UHGV virus genome: UHGV-1964375
DNA: 12,612 nt
Source: a virus
Direction: 5' to 3' (one strand)
The position numbers were made by a program, and so were the translations under genes. Under the pieces are notes generated by a model that did no database searches, had not been told where the DNA came from, and was given only the letters and a program-made list of their open reading frames with translations. Positions within the stretch are counted from its first letter, which is position 1. The number at the start of each line of letters is the position of its first letter. Shown piece after piece: positions 2,415-9,622 of the stretch.

Positions 2415-3767
<1,353 letters not shown>

Positions 3768-4199: not shown

Positions 4200-4346
4200 A
4201 TGACAAAACAACTCAGTCCTTACCAGGACAAAATTCACAAACACATACTACGTGATCGCTTCCTGTCCAGCTTCAAGCAGCCTGGTCGATTCCGGGCTGA
4301 GTTGGAAAAAGTGAAGCTGATGCAGAAGGAGAAAGGTCATGAGTAA
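4200..4346 (+). CDS. possible 48-aa ORF between cII and O
   Basis: My own translation: [53 protein letters not shown] is 5 nt before the ATG. The 3' end overlaps the O start by 8 nt. Confidence 0.3.
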
Positions 4347-5199
4347 TCTTGCAACCGTAACACATTTAAGGCCTTCACAACGGCCTGTGGAGCGTCGTGT
4401 GGCAGAAGTTGAAGATGGTTATACCCGTCTTGCAAATGCCCTGTATGAAGAGCTTATCGGCGCAGATTTAACGAAAAATCAGAGCAAGGTTGCCCACGCC
4501 ATATGCCGTAAAACATACGGCTACGGTAAAAAGATGGATCGCATCTCTGATAGTCAGTTAGCTCAAATTACCAGGCTGCCAAGACAGAAGGTAAACAAGG
4601 CCAAGAATGAGCTTATCGCGATGAAGGTTATCCTTCGCGAAGGCCAGCAAATCGGGCCTAACAAGAACATCGAGGAATGGCAAATCGAAGGGTGTCACTA
4701 CTCTGGTGATAATGTCACTGCATTGGTGACAAAAAGTGTCACCAAAACGGTGACAGCGCTGTCACCAAAACAGGGACACACAAAAGAAACTATTACAAAA
4801 GAAAAAAGAAATAATAAAAACACTATGTCCGAAAGTGTTCGGACGGAGTGTGAAAAATCACCTGACCGTCACGAAGAAACCGACAAGGCATTCGAGGAAA
4901 TATTCTGGTGTGCAGGCATGCGGAAAGCCGGGAAGAAAAACGCAGCTTCGGCATTCAGAACACAGTTCAGGGAATGGCGTAAAACTACCAAGGGTACCGC
5001 AAGCGAGTTTGCCACGATGCTGGCAGAAGACATCGCATGCAGGAATGGTAAGCAGTTCGGATTCGACAGGTTGTTACCATCGAGCTACCTGAACGGTCAA
5101 CGCTGGAACGACGAGAAGCCAGAAACTATTCAACCACAATCCAAACCATCATCCGCAATCACCGTATCGAAAACTGGCTACGTGTTTTTCGACAGGTGA
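4339..5199 (+). CDS. O: replication initiator, lambda O-like N-terminal domain (286 aa)
   Basis: [56 protein letters not shown] parallels the lambda O N-terminus. Iteron-like palindromes and an AT-rich tract lie inside the gene, as for ori-lambda. The C-terminal half is unlike lambda O. Confidence 0.85.
4684..4812. repeat. putative replication origin: iteron-like palindromes plus AT-rich tract inside the O gene
   Basis: Repeated TGTCAC...GGTGA units at 4684..4700 and 4704..4721, then palindromes GGTGACA-aaaag-TGTCACC (4716..4734) and GGTGACA-gcgc-TGTCACC (4740..4757), followed by an A-rich 40-bp tract at 4771..4812. Confidence 0.6.
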
Positions 5200-5306
5200 A
5201 CCATGAAATCAAAAATCAAATCGCTACTGGTCGCTGGTTATAACCACGGCTGGTTAAGTATTTCGTTTGTCGATTTCTGGTTTAAAAATCTCAATCTGAG
5301 GGAATC

Positions 5307-5801
5307 ATGATGAGCCTTGAAGTTGGAGAATATATACCTGGTTATGAGGGTAAATACTCTGTAACCAAAGACGGTCGTGTTTATTCACATTTAAGAGGCA
5401 GGTTTTTGAATCCATCTCCGGATAACAAGGGTTATCTAAGAGTCACTTTGTGTTCCGATGGGATTCAGAAGACGTTAAAAGTTCATCGTCTTGTAGCTCA
5501 ATTATTTATCCCAAATCCGTATTGCAAGCCAGAAGTAAATCATATCAACGGCGACAAATCGGATAACGCCATTTGGAACTTGGAATGGTGTACCTGCTCA
5601 GAGAATTTAAAACATGCTTTTAGCATCGGACTGAAAAGCGCAAAGGGAGTTTTTAATGGTAGGGCAAAACTATCTGAAACTGATGTGATTGATATCAGGA
5701 ATTCTGTTGGTATGAAACTAAGCGAACTATCCACTAAATACGGAGTGAGTGAAATGCAAATTTCCACAATCCGCAGAGGAAACGCATGGAGGCACCTTTG
5801 A
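5307..5801 (+). CDS. HNH homing endonuclease (164 aa), apparently intact
   Basis: N-terminal YEGKYSVTKDGRVYS motif (NUMOD4-like) and HRLVAQLFIPNP...VNHINGDKSDNAIWNLEWCTCSENLKHA (HNH). GAGGGA SD upstream. Lies between O and the helicase gene. Confidence 0.85.
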   Translation: MMSLEVGEYIPGYEGKYSVTKDGRVYSHLRGRFLNPSPDNKGYLRVTLCSDGIQKTLKVHRLVAQLFIPNPYCKPEVNHINGDKSDNAIWNLEWCTCSENLKHAFSIGLKSAKGVFNGRAKLSETDVIDIRNSVGMKLSELSTKYGVSEMQISTIRRGNAWRHL

Positions 5802-7678
5802 GTCCATCAGAACTTAGCGACCTGCTTTGGGCGCAGGTTGACAGGGTGGCTCCGCACCTGTTGCCAAACGGCAAGAAAGAGGGGCATGAGTGGGTTGCCG
5901 GTAACGTCAACGGTGACAAGGGAAACAGCCTTAAGGTCAACCTTAGCGGCAAGAAAAAATGGGCTGATTTCGCTGAGGGAGACGGCGGTGACATGCTTGA
6001 TTTGTGGATGGCATGTCGTGGAATTAACCTGCATCAGGCTATGCAGGAAGCGAAAGCATTTCTCGGTATCAAGGATGACGATCACCATTTCGATGCCAAA
6101 CGTGAGAAAAAATTCTCCAGACCTGATCGCAAGAAAATCGCCCGCTACGTTACCAGAACAGAATCCCATCTTGAGTACCTGCAATCGCGTGGCATATCGC
6201 CAGAAGTCGTAAAGCGCTACGAGGTTGTCAGCGGCAAGGTGTGGAATGGAGAGCGAGAACTGGATGCTCTGGTGCTTCCGTACAAACGCGATGGTGAGTT
6301 GTTGCAGGTCAAGCGAATCAGCACTGAGCGCCCGGACGGGAAGAAAGTCATTATGGCAGAAGGTGATTGCGAACCTTGTCTGTTCGGATGGCAGGCTCTG
6401 GACGCTGGCGTAAGGGCGGTTGTACTTTGCGAAGGCGAAATTGATTGTATGAGCTATGCGCAATACGGCATCTCGGCGTTATCCGTGCCGTTTGGTGGCG
6501 GGAAAGGCGCTAAGCAACAGTGGATTGAGTTTGAGTATCACAACCTCGACAGGTTTGAGGAAATATTCATCTCGATGGACGTTGATGATGTTGGTCGTGA
6601 AGCCGCAAGGGAAATCGCAAGCCGACTCGGTGAACATCGTTGCCGTCTTGTTACTCTGCCGTACAAAGACATCAACGAATGCCTGATGAACGGTGTTACC
6701 GAGGATGAAATCTGGCAGTACATCGGCACGGCATCCTACTTCGATCCTGAAGAACTCTACAGCGCGCGAGAGTTTTACCAGGACACTATCAACGCTTTCT
6801 ACGGCAAGCAGCAGTATCTGTTTAATCCACCGTGGGAATCTCTGGCAGATAAATTCCAGTTCCGTGAGGCCGAGTTGACGCTGGTCAATGGTGTGAACGG
6901 TCACGGAAAAACGGAGGTTGTCGGGCATATGGCACTTGAGGCAATGCGTCAGGGTGTGAAGACGTGCATCGCGTCACTTGAGCTGAAGCCAGGCATTCTC
7001 CTTAAGCGACTTACCCGTCAGGCGACGTGCTGCAAGATGCCGCCAGTGCTGGAAATTGACTCTGCATTTAAATTTTATGACGAAAGACTTTGGGTGTTTG
7101 GCCTGACCGGAACGGCGAAAGCCGACAGGCTGATCGAAATATTCGACTACGCTCGCCGCCGATACGGGATCCAGTTATTCATCATCGACAGCCTGATGAA
7201 ATGCGGCATAGGTGACGATGACTATAACGGGCAGAAAGCATTTGTTGACTCGATTTGTGACTTCAAAAACAAAACAAACTCCCACGTCATTCTCGTTACT
7301 CACTCCAGAAAAGGAGACAGCGAAGAAAAACCAACCGGGAAAATGGACGTAAAAGGCTCTGGAGCGATAACAGACCTGACAGACAACCTTTTTATCATCT
7401 GGCGTAACAAGGCTCGCGAGAGAGCGTTACAGAGAGTTCAGAGTGGTGAAAAGATGTCAGAGAAGGACGAACAGCTACTGGCATCTCCGGCATCTGTTTT
7501 GATGCTTGAAAAACAACGTAACGGCGAAGGTTGGGAAGGTGGTGTCCCGTTGTTCCTTGACGAGCAATCGCACCAGTTCCTGCAACTTGAATCAGGATCG
7601 CCATATAGCTACATCGCCAATATGCCGAAATCGGAATATGACGAGGCGTGGCGACAGGAAAACGTGACGGAGTATTAA
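5786..7678 (+). CDS. bifunctional DNA primase/helicase (Toprim domain plus DnaB/SF4-like ATPase), 630 aa
   Basis: Toprim motifs VVLCEGEIDCMSYA and ISMDVDDVGREAA. Walker A NGVNGHGKTE and Walker B LFIIDSLMK. The start overlaps the HNH gene by 16 nt. Confidence 0.85.
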   Translation: MEAPLSPSELSDLLWAQVDRVAPHLLPNGKKEGHEWVAGNVNGDKGNSLKVNLSGKKKWADFAEGDGGDMLDLWMACRGINLHQAMQEAKAFLGIKDDDHHFDAKREKKFSRPDRKKIARYVTRTESHLEYLQSRGISPEVVKRYEVVSGKVWNGERELDALVLPYKRDGELLQVKRISTERPDGKKVIMAEGDCEPCLFGWQALDAGVRAVVLCEGEIDCMSYAQYGISALSVPFGGGKGAKQQWIEFEYHNLDRFEEIFISMDVDDVGREAAREIASRLGEHRCRLVTLPYKDINECLMNGVTEDEIWQYIGTASYFDPEELYSAREFYQDTINAFYGKQQYLFNPPWESLADKFQFREAELTLVNGVNGHGKTEVVGHMALEAMRQGVKTCIASLELKPGILLKRLTRQATCCKMPPVLEIDSAFKFYDERLWVFGLTGTAKADRLIEIFDYARRRYGIQLFIIDSLMKCGIGDDDYNGQKAFVDSICDFKNKTNSHVILVTHSRKGDSEEKPTGKMDVKGSGAITDLTDNLFIIWRNKARERALQRVQSGEKMSEKDEQLLASPASVLMLEKQRNGEGWEGGVPLFLDEQSHQFLQLESGSPYSYIANMPKSEYDEAWRQENVTEY

Positions 7679-7707
7679 ATGACCATCTACATCACTGAGC
7701 TAATAAC

Positions 7708-7739
7708 AGGCCTGCTGGTAATCGCAGGCCTTTTTATTT
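7708..7739 (+). terminator. intrinsic terminator between the replication and nin modules (tR2-like)
   Basis: AGGCCTGC-TGGTAATC-GCAGGCCT followed by TTTTTATTT, 30 bp after the helicase stop and before ninB. Confidence 0.6.
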
Positions 7740-7755
7740 GGGGGAGAGGGAAGTC

Positions 7756-8196
7756 ATGAAAAAACTAACCTTTGAAATTCGATCTCCTGCACATCAGCAA
7801 AACGCTATTCACGCAGTACAGCAAATTCTTCCAGACCCAACCAAACCAATCGTAGTAACCATTCAGGAACGCAACCGCAGCTTAGACCAAAACAGGAAGC
7901 TATGGGCCTGCTTAGGTGACGTCTCTCGTCAGGTTGAATGGCATGGTCGCTGGCTGGATGCAGAAAGCTGGAAGTGTGTGTTTACCGCAGCATTAAAGCA
8001 GCAGGACGTTGTTCCTAACCTTGCCGGGAATGGTTTTGTGGTAATAGGCCAGTCAACCAGCAGGATGCGTGTAAGCGAATTTGCGGAGTTATTAGAGCTT
8101 ATACAGGCATTCGGTACAGAGCGTGGCGTTAAGTGGTCAGACGAAGCGCGACTGGCTCTGGAGTGGAAAGCGCGATGGGGAGACCGGGCAGCATGA
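7756..8196 (+). CDS. ninB: NinB (146 aa)
   Basis: [66 protein letters not shown]... matches lambda NinB as I recall it. Internal start of ORF 7738..8196. Confidence 0.9.
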
Positions 8197-8913: not shown

Positions 8914-9091
8914 CCCATCCCAATCCCTTCAATACCAGAAAGAAAGCGTCGAGCGGGCTTTAACGTGCGCTAACTGCGGTCAGAAGCTGCATGTGCTGGA
9001 AGTTCACGTGTGTGAGCGTTGTATATATGAATGCTTAAATATGGTGGAACATAATGAGAAATATAAGCAACATAGACGAATTAAGAAATAA
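8906..9091 (+). CDS. ninF: NinF-like protein with insertion-derived C-terminus (disrupted ninF, 5' part)
   Basis: [39 protein letters not shown] matches the lambda NinF N-terminus as I recall it, then diverges (IYECLNMVEHNEKYKQHRRIKK) where the HNH gene is inserted. Confidence 0.6.
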   Translation: MLSPSQSLQYQKESVERALTCANCGQKLHVLEVHVCERCIYECLNMVEHNEKYKQHRRIKK

Positions 9092-9561
9092 ATTATCATA
9101 TGATGATGTTTTAGGTGTACTTAGATGGAAAGTGTCTCCTTCTAATAATGTTAAGGTTTGCAGTGTTGCTGGTTACATTAGGAGTGATGGTTATAGGATG
9201 TTAACTATCGATGGTGTAATTACTTATGCTCACCACGTTATATGGATGATAAATAATGGTGAGATTCCATTAGGGTATAAAATTGATCATATAAATGGAG
9301 TAAGGGTCAGATAATAGGCTATCTAATCTTCGATTGGTTACACACCAACAGAATGCACAGAACCAAAAGAGAAAAATAACCAATTCGTCAGGAGTGACTG
9401 GAGTATATTTCAATAAAGAGAGATGTAAGTGGATTGCGAATATATGCGTAGATGGGCGCACCAAATATCTTGGAATATTTGCTAGCATCATTGACGCTAT
9501 TGCAGAAAGGAAGAGGGCAGAAAAAGAACTGGGTTTTCATGAAAACCATGGTAGACCATAA
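9054..9561 (+). pseudogene. HNH homing endonuclease (HNH plus AP2-like DNA-binding domain) inserted in ninF; reading frame broken by a +1 shift near 9303..9306
   Basis: Frame A reads ...YAHHVIWMINNGEIPLGYKIDHINGVRVR then stop. The +1 frame from 9304 reads GSDNRLSNLRLVTHQQNAQNQKRK...SGVTGVYFNKERCKWIANICVDGRTKYLGIFASIIDAIAERKRAEKELGF. Removing one G from the GGG run would restore HINGVRSDNRLSNLR. Confidence 0.7.
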
Positions 9562-9562
9562 C

Positions 9563-9622
9563 TGCGCAGAACTGATGAGCGATCCGAATAGCTCGATGCA
9601 CGAGGAAGAAGACGATGGCTAA
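9563..9622 (+). pseudogene. ninF: ninF 3' remnant ([19 protein letters not shown])
   Basis: In frame with the ninF 5' part across a 540-bp insertion (9023..9562). Matches the C-terminus of lambda NinF as I recall it. Its stop overlaps the ninG start. Confidence 0.5.

What the first reader, a model, noticed from the sequence alone, without database searches (positions are those of the whole stretch)
5203..5801. Second, intact HNH endonuclease wedged between O and the primase/helicase gene, with a 35-aa hydrophobic micro-ORF
A free-standing HNH endonuclease (5307..5801) sits between the two replication genes, and its 3' end overlaps the helicase start by 16 nt. Just upstream, a 35-aa ORF (5203..5310, MKSKIKSLLVAGYNHGWLSISFVDFWFKNLNLRES) has an AGGTGA SD and an ATGA overlap with the endonuclease start. 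Two unrelated HNH genes in 12 kb suggests active homing traffic in this phage lineage. The micro-ORF may be a remnant of the insertion or a small membrane peptide.
Basis: partly seen in the sequence, partly recalled or inferred. Interest (0 to 1): 0.4.

Follow-up and report, generated by a model that had tools for sequence, protein, structure and literature searches.

The report
Homing endonuclease gene in prophage replication module
A small selfish nuclease gene has inserted itself precisely between two translationally linked replication genes of a lambda-like prophage and appears to have spread recently among related E. coli prophages; the tiny 35-codon gene next to it is not debris from that insertion but a genuine, widely conserved phage gene of unknown function.

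Summary
Window 5307-5801 encodes an intact 164-aa I-HmuI-like HNH endonuclease (NUMOD4 + HNH_3 + C-terminal HTH). It lies between a 35-aa ORF (5203-5310) and the Toprim/DnaB-like primase-helicase.

Phages Sf101, mEp043, SEN22 and ES18 have the empty site. There the 35-aa ORF is ATGA-coupled directly to the primase. The insert is a net 491 nt. The HNH takes over the old primase SD and ATG, and its last codons supply a new SD (GGAGG) and start for the primase.

Only 5 of 292 complete E. coli genomes holding this module carry the HNH, and 0 of 28 species-representative genomes do. Diverged relatives (66-81% identity) occupy the same site in Cronobacter, Enterobacter and Pantoea prophages.

Among 13 distinct carrier haplotypes the HNH body has 0 segregating sites. 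The adjacent primase has about 4 per 100 nt. Several carrier flank haplotypes are identical to empty-site haplotypes. This fits recent homing.

The 35-aa ORF is a conserved gene (ES18 gp60, phrog_21848; dN/dS about 0.1-0.6), not an insertion remnant and not membrane-grade hydrophobic.

Verdict: an ordinary free-standing homing endonuclease, a new member of a known kind.

The parts
4339..5199 (+). Replication initiator O (286 aa). Its C-terminal part belongs to the conserved O / micro-ORF / primase module.
   Evidence: Phage_rep_O, E 1.1e-37. 99% identical to O of Sf101 and mEp043.
5194..5199 (+). AGGTGA Shine-Dalgarno-like site for the micro-ORF. Its TGA is the O stop codon, 3 nt before the micro-ORF ATG.
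   Evidence: Read directly from the sequence.
5203..5310 (+). 35-aa conserved small gene (ES18 gp60 / phrog_21848), function unknown. Its last codons (CTG AGG) carry the SD for the next gene, and its stop overlaps that gene's start (ATGA).
   Evidence: phrog_21848, E 4.4e-26. Exactly 35 codons in at least 21 of 28 species loci, and in every HNH-carrying and empty relative examined. dN/dS 0.11-0.58 against the window; median pN/pS 0.32 over 136 pairs.
5298..5303 (+). GAGGGA SD. It serves the primase in empty-site alleles and is used here by the HNH gene.
   Evidence: The alignment of occupied and empty alleles is identical up to ATGA at 5307-5310.
5307..5801 (+). Free-standing I-HmuI-like HNH endonuclease gene (164 aa): NUMOD4 domain, HNH_3 catalytic core (H79, N91, N100) and a C-terminal helix-turn-helix.
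   Evidence: Pfam. I-HmuI 1U3E is the only PDB sequence hit, E 7e-14. AF2 model pLDDT 92; best fold hit 1U3E, E 3.5e-9 over 165 columns. H79, N91 and N100 are invariant in 25 homologues. dN/dS 0.09-0.17.
5311..5809 (+). DNA that differs from type-1 empty-site alleles. It replaces the 8 nt CGCCAAGT, a net +491 nt, which equals the distance from ATGA (5307) to TTGA (5798).
   Evidence: Alignment with Sf101, mEp043 and vB_EcoP-720R6. Junction listing.
5776..5792 (+). Two SD-like sites inside the HNH 3' end: GAGGA (5776-5780), 5 nt before ATG 5786, and GGAGG (5788-5792, the HNH Trp-Arg codons), 5 nt before TTG 5798.
   Evidence: Read from the sequence. The AWRHL* / GGAGG arrangement is conserved in the Cronobacter carrier (L017), the unassigned metagenome carrier (L019) and the Enterobacter carrier (L021).
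5801..5809 (+). AGTCCATCA patch at the 5' end of the primase. It is invariant in all 13 carrier haplotypes and differs at 6 of 9 nt from type-1 empty alleles (ACGCCAAGT). It is a candidate co-converted or cleavage-immunity patch.
   Evidence: The same sequence starts the primase in HNH-less 'type-3' alleles (Klebsiella phage phiKp_30, E. coli RMDEC465) and in the Enterobacter carrier.
5798..7678 (+). Primase/helicase (Toprim_2 + AAA_25/DnaB_C). It is 626 aa from TTG 5798, the homology-supported start, or 630 aa from ATG 5786.
   Evidence: Pfam. phrog_239, E 2.9e-171. Start-codon comparison. PGAP annotation of identical alleles.
7708..7731 (+). Terminator-like stem-loop with a T-run after the primase gene. 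It marks the end of the module's coding block.
   Evidence: Consensus scan only.

Best explanation
Window 5307-5801 is a free-standing homing endonuclease gene of the I-HmuI type. It sits in the ES18-type lambdoid replication module (O, 35-aa gene, primase/helicase).

Shown:
- The ancestral, common state of the module has the 35-aa gene's stop overlapping the primase start (ATGA).
- The HNH ORF is inserted exactly at that junction.
- It inherits the primase's original SD and ATG.
- It ends in ...AWRHL-TGA. Those codons create a new SD (GGAGG) and a TTGA start/stop overlap for the primase. The chain micro-ORF, HNH, primase therefore stays translationally linked, and the essential downstream gene is not silenced.

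Inferred:
- The gene has no promoter of its own and is transcribed with the early-right (pR) operon. The enzyme would then be made only during lytic growth, when phage recombination functions are active.
- There it nicks or cuts HNH-less copies of the same junction in co-resident or co-infecting related phages.
- Repair from the HNH-carrying copy converts the empty site, together with a few adjacent nucleotides (the AGTCCATCA patch). That patch may also protect carriers from self-cleavage.

The neighbouring 35-aa ORF is an independent, conserved gene of the module. It is most likely a small partner of O and/or the primase-helicase.
For: Identity of the protein:
- NUMOD4 + HNH_3.
- I-HmuI is the only PDB relative by sequence, and the best fold hit for a pLDDT-92 model.
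- Catalytic H79, N91 and N100 are invariant.
- dN/dS 0.09-0.17 across lineages.

Precise insertion:
- Alignment to empty alleles in Sf101, mEp043 and 720R6, with 99% identical flanks.

Sporadic distribution:
- 5 of 292 complete E. coli genomes that hold the site carry the HNH.
- 0 of 28 species-representative loci carry it.
- No phage in the 50,697-record collection has it at 60% or higher protein identity.

Site fidelity:
- Relatives at 81, 80, 77 and 66% identity sit at the same junction in Cronobacter, Enterobacter, Pantoea and metagenome prophages.
- Relatives at 45-49% sit elsewhere, in the Q-holin gap.

Recent horizontal spread:
- 13 distinct carrier haplotypes lie in at least 10 different prophage mosaics.
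- They show 0 segregating sites in 485 nt of HNH, against 76 in the adjacent 1800 nt of primase. About 20 would be expected, so the Poisson probability of 1 or fewer is below 1e-7 (my arithmetic).
- Flank haplotypes of three carriers are identical to those of empty alleles: window matches L026 and L062 matches L003 on both flanks, and L006 matches L001 on the right flank. Polymorphisms lie 17-35 nt from the junctions.
- The 9-nt patch differs at 6 positions from type-1 empties and is invariant in carriers.

Precedent:
- T4 mobE is a free-standing HNH gene between nrdA and nrdB with a UAAUGA overlap suggesting translational coupling (PMC2988022).
- I-HmuI-like HNH genes of Skunavirus cluster by insertion site and cause marker exclusion (PMC12724721).
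Against: - No biochemical or genetic test of cleavage or homing exists for this protein. The target site and the strand cut are unknown.
- The O-primase module is itself a recombining mosaic unit that is about 99% identical between prophages. Ordinary homologous recombination could contribute to placing the HNH on several haplotypes.
- One carrier (E. coli elppa4) has 4 extra nt (CGCC) at the left junction. These leave the HNH without a canonical start, so at least some copies may be inactive.
- The AGTCCATCA patch also occurs in HNH-less alleles, so it is not unique to carriers.
- HNH divergence tracks primase divergence across genera. That is also compatible with long vertical co-residence.
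Confidence: 0.8

Rival explanations
1. The HNH gene is a passive, possibly inactive passenger. It entered the E. coli lambdoid pool once and was moved onto different prophages only by ordinary homologous or mosaic recombination of the conserved O-primase module. Endonuclease-driven conversion played no part.
For: The module flanks are about 99% identical in carriers and non-carriers and are bounded by mosaic breakpoints. One carrier has a start-disrupting CGCC insertion.
Against: Crossovers would have to fall within 17-110 nt on both sides repeatedly, in a time too short for a single substitution in 485 nt of HNH. The protein is under strong purifying selection in diverged lineages (dN/dS 0.09-0.17). 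The catalytic residues are invariant.
Confidence: 0.1
2. The HNH protein is a domesticated accessory of the replication module, for example a nickase that helps initiation or processing of replication intermediates. It is inherited vertically with the primase and has been lost repeatedly.
For: It always lies between O and the primase. Its divergence tracks that of the primase across genera (88/81, 88/77, 77/80 and 77/66% primase/HNH identity). It is under purifying selection.
Against: It is absent from about 98% of E. coli modules and from 28 of 28 species-representative modules, and the empty junctions are perfectly ATGA-coupled. Repeated exact deletions are implausible. The lack of diversity relative to the flanks argues against long vertical residence in E. 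coli. Related I-HmuI-type enzymes are mobility or marker-exclusion nucleases.
Confidence: 0.07
3. The 35-codon ORF is not a protein-coding gene. It is a leftover of the insertion, or a conserved leader whose only role is to carry the SD and couple translation into the next gene.
For: It is very short and has no Pfam match. Its 3' end does contain the SD of the next gene.
Against: It is present in all empty-site relatives. It is exactly 35 codons long in at least 21 species as far apart as Morganella, Arsenophonus, Xenorhabdus and Pantoea. Synonymous sites are near saturation while dN/dS stays at 0.11-0.58. It matches a phage protein family profile, E 4e-26.
Confidence: 0.03

Closest known systems
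I-HmuI (PDB 1U3E), the HNH nicking homing endonuclease of Bacillus phage SPO1
   Same: The three-part architecture is the same: an N-terminal beta-sheet DNA-binding (NUMOD4) domain, an HNH/HNN beta-beta-alpha-metal core and a C-terminal helix-turn-helix. It is the only PDB sequence hit (E 7e-14, residues 10-151) and the best fold hit (E 3.5e-9, 165 columns). Length is similar, 164 versus 174 aa.
   Different: I-HmuI is encoded inside a group I intron of a DNA polymerase gene. This gene is free-standing between two genes, and no intron or any other Rfam family was found in the window. Identity is only 28%. The residue before the catalytic His is Asn (N78) instead of Asp. Nicking activity has not been tested here.
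Phage T4 mobE, a free-standing HNH homing endonuclease between nrdA and nrdB
   Same: It is a free-standing HNH gene wedged between two functionally linked, co-transcribed genes. Its start codon overlaps the upstream stop, suggesting translational coupling. It depends on upstream promoters and is variably present among related phages (PMC2988022).
   Different: The phage type differs (virulent T-even versus temperate lambdoid prophage), as do the flanking genes. Here the 3' end of the HNH also overlaps, and supplies the SD and start for, the downstream essential gene. In T4, nrdB has its own middle promoter. No sequence relationship was tested.
I-HmuI-like HNH endonucleases of lactococcal Skunavirus phages
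   Same: These are free-standing I-HmuI-like genes that vary in number and position. They cluster phylogenetically by insertion site and show marker exclusion (PMC12724721). Here too, close relatives share the site and relatives at 45-49% sit at another site.
   Different: The host phylum and phage group differ. No activity assay exists for the present protein.
ES18 gp60 / epsilon34 gp51 / phrog_21848 (for the micro-ORF)
   Same: The 35-aa protein occupies the same position between the O-like gene and the primase/helicase. The ES18 version differs from the window's at 2 of 35 residues.
   Different: Nothing structural. No function has been assigned in any record seen.

Membership tests
I-HmuI-like HNH endonucleases (NUMOD4 + HNH_3 + HTH) | N-terminal NUMOD4 DNA-binding module | tested here: met
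   PF07463, E 1.6e-10, 41.5 bits against a cut-off of 23.4, residues 9-48.
I-HmuI-like HNH endonucleases (NUMOD4 + HNH_3 + HTH) | HNH (beta-beta-alpha-metal) catalytic core with the conserved His and two Asn | tested here: met
   PF13392, E 2.3e-9, residues 58-101. H79, N91 and N100 are invariant in 25 homologues. Aligned to the I-HmuI motif.
I-HmuI-like HNH endonucleases (NUMOD4 + HNH_3 + HTH) | Overall elongated three-domain fold with a C-terminal helix-turn-helix | tested here: met
   AF2 model pLDDT 92 with helices 124-131, 138-145 and 149-156. Foldseek best hit 1U3E over 165 columns, TM 0.60. The C-terminus also matches HTH proteins.
I-HmuI-like HNH endonucleases (NUMOD4 + HNH_3 + HTH) | Site-specific single-strand nicking of the cognate target | not testable with these tools
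   Needs purified protein and substrate DNA.
Free-standing homing endonuclease genes (T4 mob/seg type) | Located between conserved genes, not within an intron or intein | tested here: met
   Separate ORF with its own start and stop between the micro-ORF and the primase. No Rfam family, and so no group I or II intron, in the window.
Free-standing homing endonuclease genes (T4 mob/seg type) | Presence/absence polymorphism with precise empty sites in close relatives | tested here: met
   Empty alleles with 99% identical flanks. 287 of 292 E. coli genomes holding the site lack the HNH. 28 of 28 species loci are empty.
Free-standing homing endonuclease genes (T4 mob/seg type) | Population signature of recent horizontal spread: the element is younger than its flanks and found on several flank haplotypes | tested here: met
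   0 segregating sites in the HNH body versus 76 in the adjacent 1800 nt, among 13 haplotypes. Three carriers share flank haplotypes with empty alleles, two on both flanks and one on the right flank.
Free-standing homing endonuclease genes (T4 mob/seg type) | Carrier allele differs from the target at or near the cleavage site (self-immunity) | tested here: inconclusive
   A 9-nt patch next to the insertion differs at 6 positions from type-1 empties and is invariant in carriers. The cleavage site is unknown, and the patch also occurs in some HNH-less alleles.
Free-standing homing endonuclease genes (T4 mob/seg type) | Endonuclease-dependent, super-Mendelian gene conversion of empty alleles | not testable with these tools
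   Requires phage crosses with wild-type and catalytic-mutant donors.
phrog_21848 / ES18 gp60 small protein (micro-ORF) | Full-length match to the family profile, in the position between the O-like gene and the primase/helicase | tested here: met
   E 4.4e-26, residues 1-34 of a 35-position profile. Same position in all loci examined.
   The best 19-residue Kyte-Doolittle mean is 0.52-0.92 in seven homologues. The segment contains conserved N, H and D/E residues. Net charge is +3 to +4.
Packaging-associated HNH (HK97 gp74 type) | Gene adjacent to the terminase or portal genes, at the end of the late region | tested here: not met
   The gene lies in the early-right replication module between O and the primase. 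Its architecture is NUMOD4 + HNH_3 + HTH, not the short HNH-only type.

The most novel reading that the evidence does not exclude
The 35-aa protein (ES18 gp60 / phrog_21848) is a so far unrecognised third component of the ES18-type replication machinery. It could, for example, be a mini-adaptor that links the C-terminal domain of O to the primase-helicase, the role lambda P plays for DnaB. On this reading the homing endonuclease family has specialised on the translational-coupling junction of this essential pair, because that junction cannot easily mutate to escape. Hints: the ORF co-varies with the module across Enterobacterales, it is always start/stop-coupled to the primase, and in one metagenomic representative it is fused in frame to the C-terminus of O (P0125).
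Probability: 0.2. Interest if true: 0.5.

Novelty: new member of a known kind. Interest (0 to 1): 0.3.

Why it matters
The finding adds a clean natural example of a free-standing homing endonuclease in temperate lambdoid prophages. Most detailed work on such elements comes from virulent T-even and dairy phages.

The example has three useful properties:
- an exactly defined empty site;
- a seamless take-over of translational coupling signals;
- a population-genetic signature of recent spread across many E. coli prophage mosaics.

In practice the HNH/empty-site polymorphism gives an experimentally tractable pair, for example an HNH-carrying prophage crossed with mEp043 or Sf101. Such crosses could measure homing and marker exclusion in lambdoid phages, including Stx phages that share the module.

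The work also flags a conserved 35-aa gene that most genome annotations omit. That gene probably belongs to the replication module.

Tried and rejected
- **HNH remnant in the type-3 spacer.** I tested whether the 122-nt spacer of 'type-3' HNH-less alleles (Klebsiella phage phiKp_30, E. coli RMDEC465) is a decayed HNH. Short-word blastn against five HNH-family DNAs found only the shared 23 nt at the primase start. Rejected.
- **Intron or other structured RNA.** Rfam gathering-threshold scan of the whole window: no match.
- **Own promoter for the HNH.** Two promoter-like sites in 4300-7800 against 3.9 expected by chance, so no support.
- **phmmer of the micro-ORF against 1.8 billion representatives.** Only three genuine hits. 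The 872-aa and 1145-aa hits are repeat proteins matching 'GW.D..KVDFWLT' and are spurious.
- **ES18 genome paper (PMC545730).** Not held, so what its authors said about gp60 could not be read.
- **HK97 gp74-like packaging HNH.** Considered and rejected on position and architecture.
- **Close copy in a sequenced phage isolate.** Looked for at 60% or higher identity in the phage collection: none. The best is 48.8%, in Salmonella phage 29485 at a different site.

Full report
**What the window is.** The window is the immunity, replication and nin region of a lambdoid prophage. Its genes, in order:
- cI (2816-3448, minus strand), then cro and cII
- O (4339-5199; Phage_rep_O, E 1e-37)
- a 35-codon ORF (5203-5310)
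- the HNH ORF (5307-5801)
- a Toprim_2 + AAA_25/DnaB_C primase-helicase ending at 7678
- NinB, a second broken HNH, NinG, NinH, a Ser/Thr phosphatase, Q and a holin

**Checking the observation.** The coordinates, the peptide sequence, the AGGTGA at 5194-5199 (whose TGA is the O stop) and the ATGA overlap at 5307-5310 are all as described. So is the in-frame primase ATG at 5786, which gives a 16-nt overlap. The 164-aa protein matches NUMOD4 (E 1.6e-10) and HNH_3 (E 2.3e-9), both above the Pfam gathering scores. This is not a chance ORF.

**The empty site.** Phages Sf101, mEp043 and vB_EcoP-720R6 (98.4-99.3% identical) and SEN22 (91%) match O and the primase, but their match spans 2849 nt instead of 3340. 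In the alignment, the 35-codon ORF is present in these phages. Its stop overlaps the primase start: …GGGAATC-ATGA-CGCCAAGTGAACTT…. In the window, 5311-5809 replaces the 8 nt CGCCAAGT, a net +491 nt. That equals the distance from ATGA (5307) to TTGA (5798).

The HNH ORF has therefore taken over the original SD (GAGGGA, 5298-5303) and ATG of the primase. Its last codons (…A-W-R-H-L-stop = GCATGGAGGCACCTTTGA) contain GGAGG followed 5 nt later by TTG-A.

The start of the primase is supported by comparison:
- The homologous primase codon is TTG or GTG in other carriers.
- It is ATG, with its own AAGGAGG, in the Pantoea carriers, where the HNH stops 15 nt upstream.
- It is ATG in HNH-less 'type-3' alleles.
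- PGAP annotates identical alleles from this codon.

I therefore consider a 4-nt overlap (626-aa primase) more likely than the 16-nt overlap. ATG 5786, with GAGGA 5 nt upstream, is not excluded.

**What the protein is.**
- The only solved relative by sequence is I-HmuI (1U3E, E 7e-14, residues 10-151).
- An AlphaFold2 model built on 25 homologues has mean pLDDT 92. It shows an N-terminal beta-sheet domain, a beta-beta-alpha core and three C-terminal helices.
- The best fold hit is again 1U3E over 165 columns (E 3.5e-9, TM 0.60). Other HTH proteins match the C-terminus.
- H79, N91 and N100 are invariant in the alignment.
- Among the window copy and four diverged relatives, dN/dS is 0.09-0.17.

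The gene is intact and has been kept functional.

**Distribution.**
- Of 5426 complete E. coli genomes, 292 hold this junction and only 5 hold the HNH. All five copies are 100% identical over the 475-nt HNH query and at the same site.
- A scan of one genome per bacterial species with a primase alignment returned 28 loci, from Shimwellia, Pseudocitrobacter, Citrobacter, Leclercia, Enterobacter, Pantoea, Erwinia, Mixta, Xenorhabdus, Morganella, Providencia, Arsenophonus and others. None has an HNH within 3 kb.
- No record in the 50,697-record phage collection has the protein at 60% or higher identity.
- The protein cluster itself is nevertheless common in E. coli assemblies: 121 member sequences, listed in 363 index blocks.

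**Site fidelity.** The closest diverged relatives all lie at the same place, between the 35-codon ORF and the primase, in prophages that otherwise differ.

| Relative | HNH identity to window |
|---|---|
| Cronobacter sakazakii | 81% |
| An unassigned metagenome lineage | 80% |
| Enterobacter roggenkampii | 77% |
| Pantoea | 66% |

Empty sites also exist in Enterobacter and Pantoea. Relatives at 45-49% identity (Salmonella phage 29485, E. coli phage N7) lie at a different site, between Q and the holin. Clustering of I-HmuI-like genes by insertion site has been described for lactococcal Skunavirus phages, together with marker exclusion (PMC12724721).

**Evidence for recent mobility.** I collected 13 distinct carrier haplotypes: the window, five complete genomes and ten further contigs. 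They lie in at least 10 different mosaics, with different repressors, O types (including the Stx-type HTH_36 O) and nin regions.

- The HNH body (5311-5795) has no segregating site across these haplotypes. The only differences are a CGCC indel at the left junction in strain elppa4 and one SNP at 5796.
- The adjacent 1800 nt of primase has 76 segregating sites, about 4.2 per 100 nt. About 20 would be expected in the HNH. The Poisson probability of seeing one or fewer is below 1e-7. This is my arithmetic, and it assumes a uniform rate.
- The flanking haplotypes of three carriers are identical to those of empty alleles. The window matches Shimwellia L026 and L062 matches 720R6 L003 on both flanks; L006 matches Sf101 L001 on the right flank only.
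- Polymorphisms occur as close as 17-21 nt to the right of the junction and 34 nt to the left.

The HNH is thus much younger than the diversity of the sequences it sits in, and it has been placed on many haplotypes with very short exchanged tracts. A break at the junction followed by repair from a carrier, that is homing, explains this most simply.

The 9 nt next to the insertion (AGTCCATCA, 5801-5809) are invariant in carriers. They differ at 6 positions from the type-1 empty allele (ACGCCAAGT), including an AGT-to-TCA serine codon switch. The same sequence is native to the Enterobacter carrier and to 'type-3' HNH-less alleles. The patch therefore looks imported with the HNH by co-conversion. 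Whether it also confers immunity to cleavage is untested.

**Expression (inferred).** No promoter-like excess was found in 4300-7800, and a terminator-like hairpin follows the primase. The HNH is therefore probably co-transcribed with the pR operon and translated through the coupling chain. The closest described arrangement is T4 mobE. That free-standing HNH gene lies between nrdA and nrdB, and its AUG overlaps the nrdA stop (UAAUGA), which is read as translational coupling (PMC2988022). The present case goes one step further, because the HNH also supplies the SD and start context of the downstream essential gene.

**The 35-codon ORF.** It is not a remnant of the insertion.
- It is present in every empty-site relative. 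Some records annotate it (ES18 gp60, epsilon34 gene 51, vB_EcoP-720R6) and most omit it.
- It matches phrog_21848 over its full length (E 4e-26, function unknown).
- It is exactly 35 codons long in at least 21 of the 28 species loci and in all diverged carriers. Its stop always overlaps or abuts the next start.
- My consensus, read from the sequences, is MK[SP]xIKxLL[IV]AGYNHG[WL]LSxxFVxxWFxxLxLRxx.
- Against the window copy, dN/dS is 0.11-0.58 with synonymous sites near saturation. The median pN/pS over 136 pairs is 0.32.
- It is not membrane-grade hydrophobic: the best 19-residue Kyte-Doolittle mean is 0.5-0.9, conserved N, H and D/E residues sit in the 'hydrophobic' stretch, and net charge is +3 to +4.
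- A library-wide phmmer search found only three genuine representatives. One is a 131-aa ORF in which the C-terminus of O runs in frame into the micro-ORF.

The last point is a weak hint that the peptide works with O. I regard it as a small partner of the O / primase-helicase machinery. Its function remains inferred.

**Rivals.**
- A passive passenger spread only by ordinary recombination is not excluded, and I give it about 0.1. It would need many close double crossovers in a time too short for any substitution in the HNH. It also does not explain the purifying selection.
- A domesticated replication nuclease, about 0.07, is hard to reconcile with absence from about 98% of modules that have perfectly coupled empty junctions.
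- A non-coding micro-ORF, about 0.03, is contradicted by the codon-level evidence.

**Novelty and verdict.** This is a new member of a well-known kind, a free-standing I-HmuI-like HNH homing endonuclease. It is unusually well documented here by its empty site, its seamless use of coupling signals and its population signature. A specialist would not be surprised. The conserved and usually unannotated 35-aa gene is the less expected element. Interest 0.3.

Noticed in passing
window 8940-9622 (insert 9018-9561): The window's other HNH (HNH_3 + AP2-like, phrog_99; ORFs 9054-9314 and 9334-9561 in different frames) is a frameshifted pseudogene that lies inside ninF. Window 8940-9017 equals ninF nt 29-106 (78/78 identical) and 9562-9622 equals ninF nt 111-171 (59/61). 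An insert of about 544 nt therefore splits ninF at codon 36 (HVCE|HCCAEL). The 5' ninF fragment reads on into the insert as …HVCERCIYEC…*, which keeps a CxxC pair. No intron family was found.
   Followed up: partly
L004 1496-4402 (Stx2a phage F451); L005 782-3688 (Klebsiella phage phiKp_30); also O157:H7 locus L015: In Stx2-converting phages and phiKp_30 the same primase/helicase gene is 968 aa instead of 626. The extra 342 aa or so carry Hint (residues 379-424) and LAGLIDADG_3 (579-634) matches. This looks like an intein with a homing endonuclease inside the helicase domain, a second kind of homing element in the same gene.
   Followed up: partly
L006 about 7997-8000 (E. coli elppa4, NZ_CP083512.1), equivalent to window 5310/5311: One of the five complete-genome carriers has 4 extra nt, CGCC, at the left junction (ATGACGCC|TGAGCC). 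They are identical to the 4 nt that follow ATGA in the empty allele. They put the HNH out of frame with the ATG, and PGAP calls a shortened 155-aa protein. This is either an independent or older junction, or the beginning of decay.
   Followed up: partly
L005 about 658-781; L014 about 2659-2780: A third allele of the junction exists in phiKp_30 and E. coli RMDEC465. The micro-ORF ends …NLDLSSH*, then comes a spacer of about 122 nt with no similarity to the HNH, then the primase starts ATGAGTCCATCA…. In L005 the spacer holds a 38-codon ORF that is ATGA-coupled to the primase. Its frame is not conserved in L014.
   Followed up: partly
L006-L010, L054-L063 (nin and late-control regions of carrier prophages): These prophages carry several further HNH genes at other positions: after cII, after NinB, between NinF and NinG, between YbcO and RusA, and after Q. 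Up to three or four occur per 12 kb, so HNH genes are generally abundant in this lineage.
   Followed up: no
L002 1362-1508; L012 362-508 (RefSeq records of mEp043 and SEN22): The 48-aa DUF2740 gene just upstream of O is named 'tail protein' in the RefSeq records. This is very probably an annotation error, given its position in the early-right operon.
   Followed up: no
L058 4915-6001 (GCA_050420135.1): In one carrier contig no O gene is called between the repressor gene and the HNH, and homology to the window's O breaks at about window 5075. This is probably a deletion or rearrangement that removed most of O and left the HNH-primase part.
   Followed up: no
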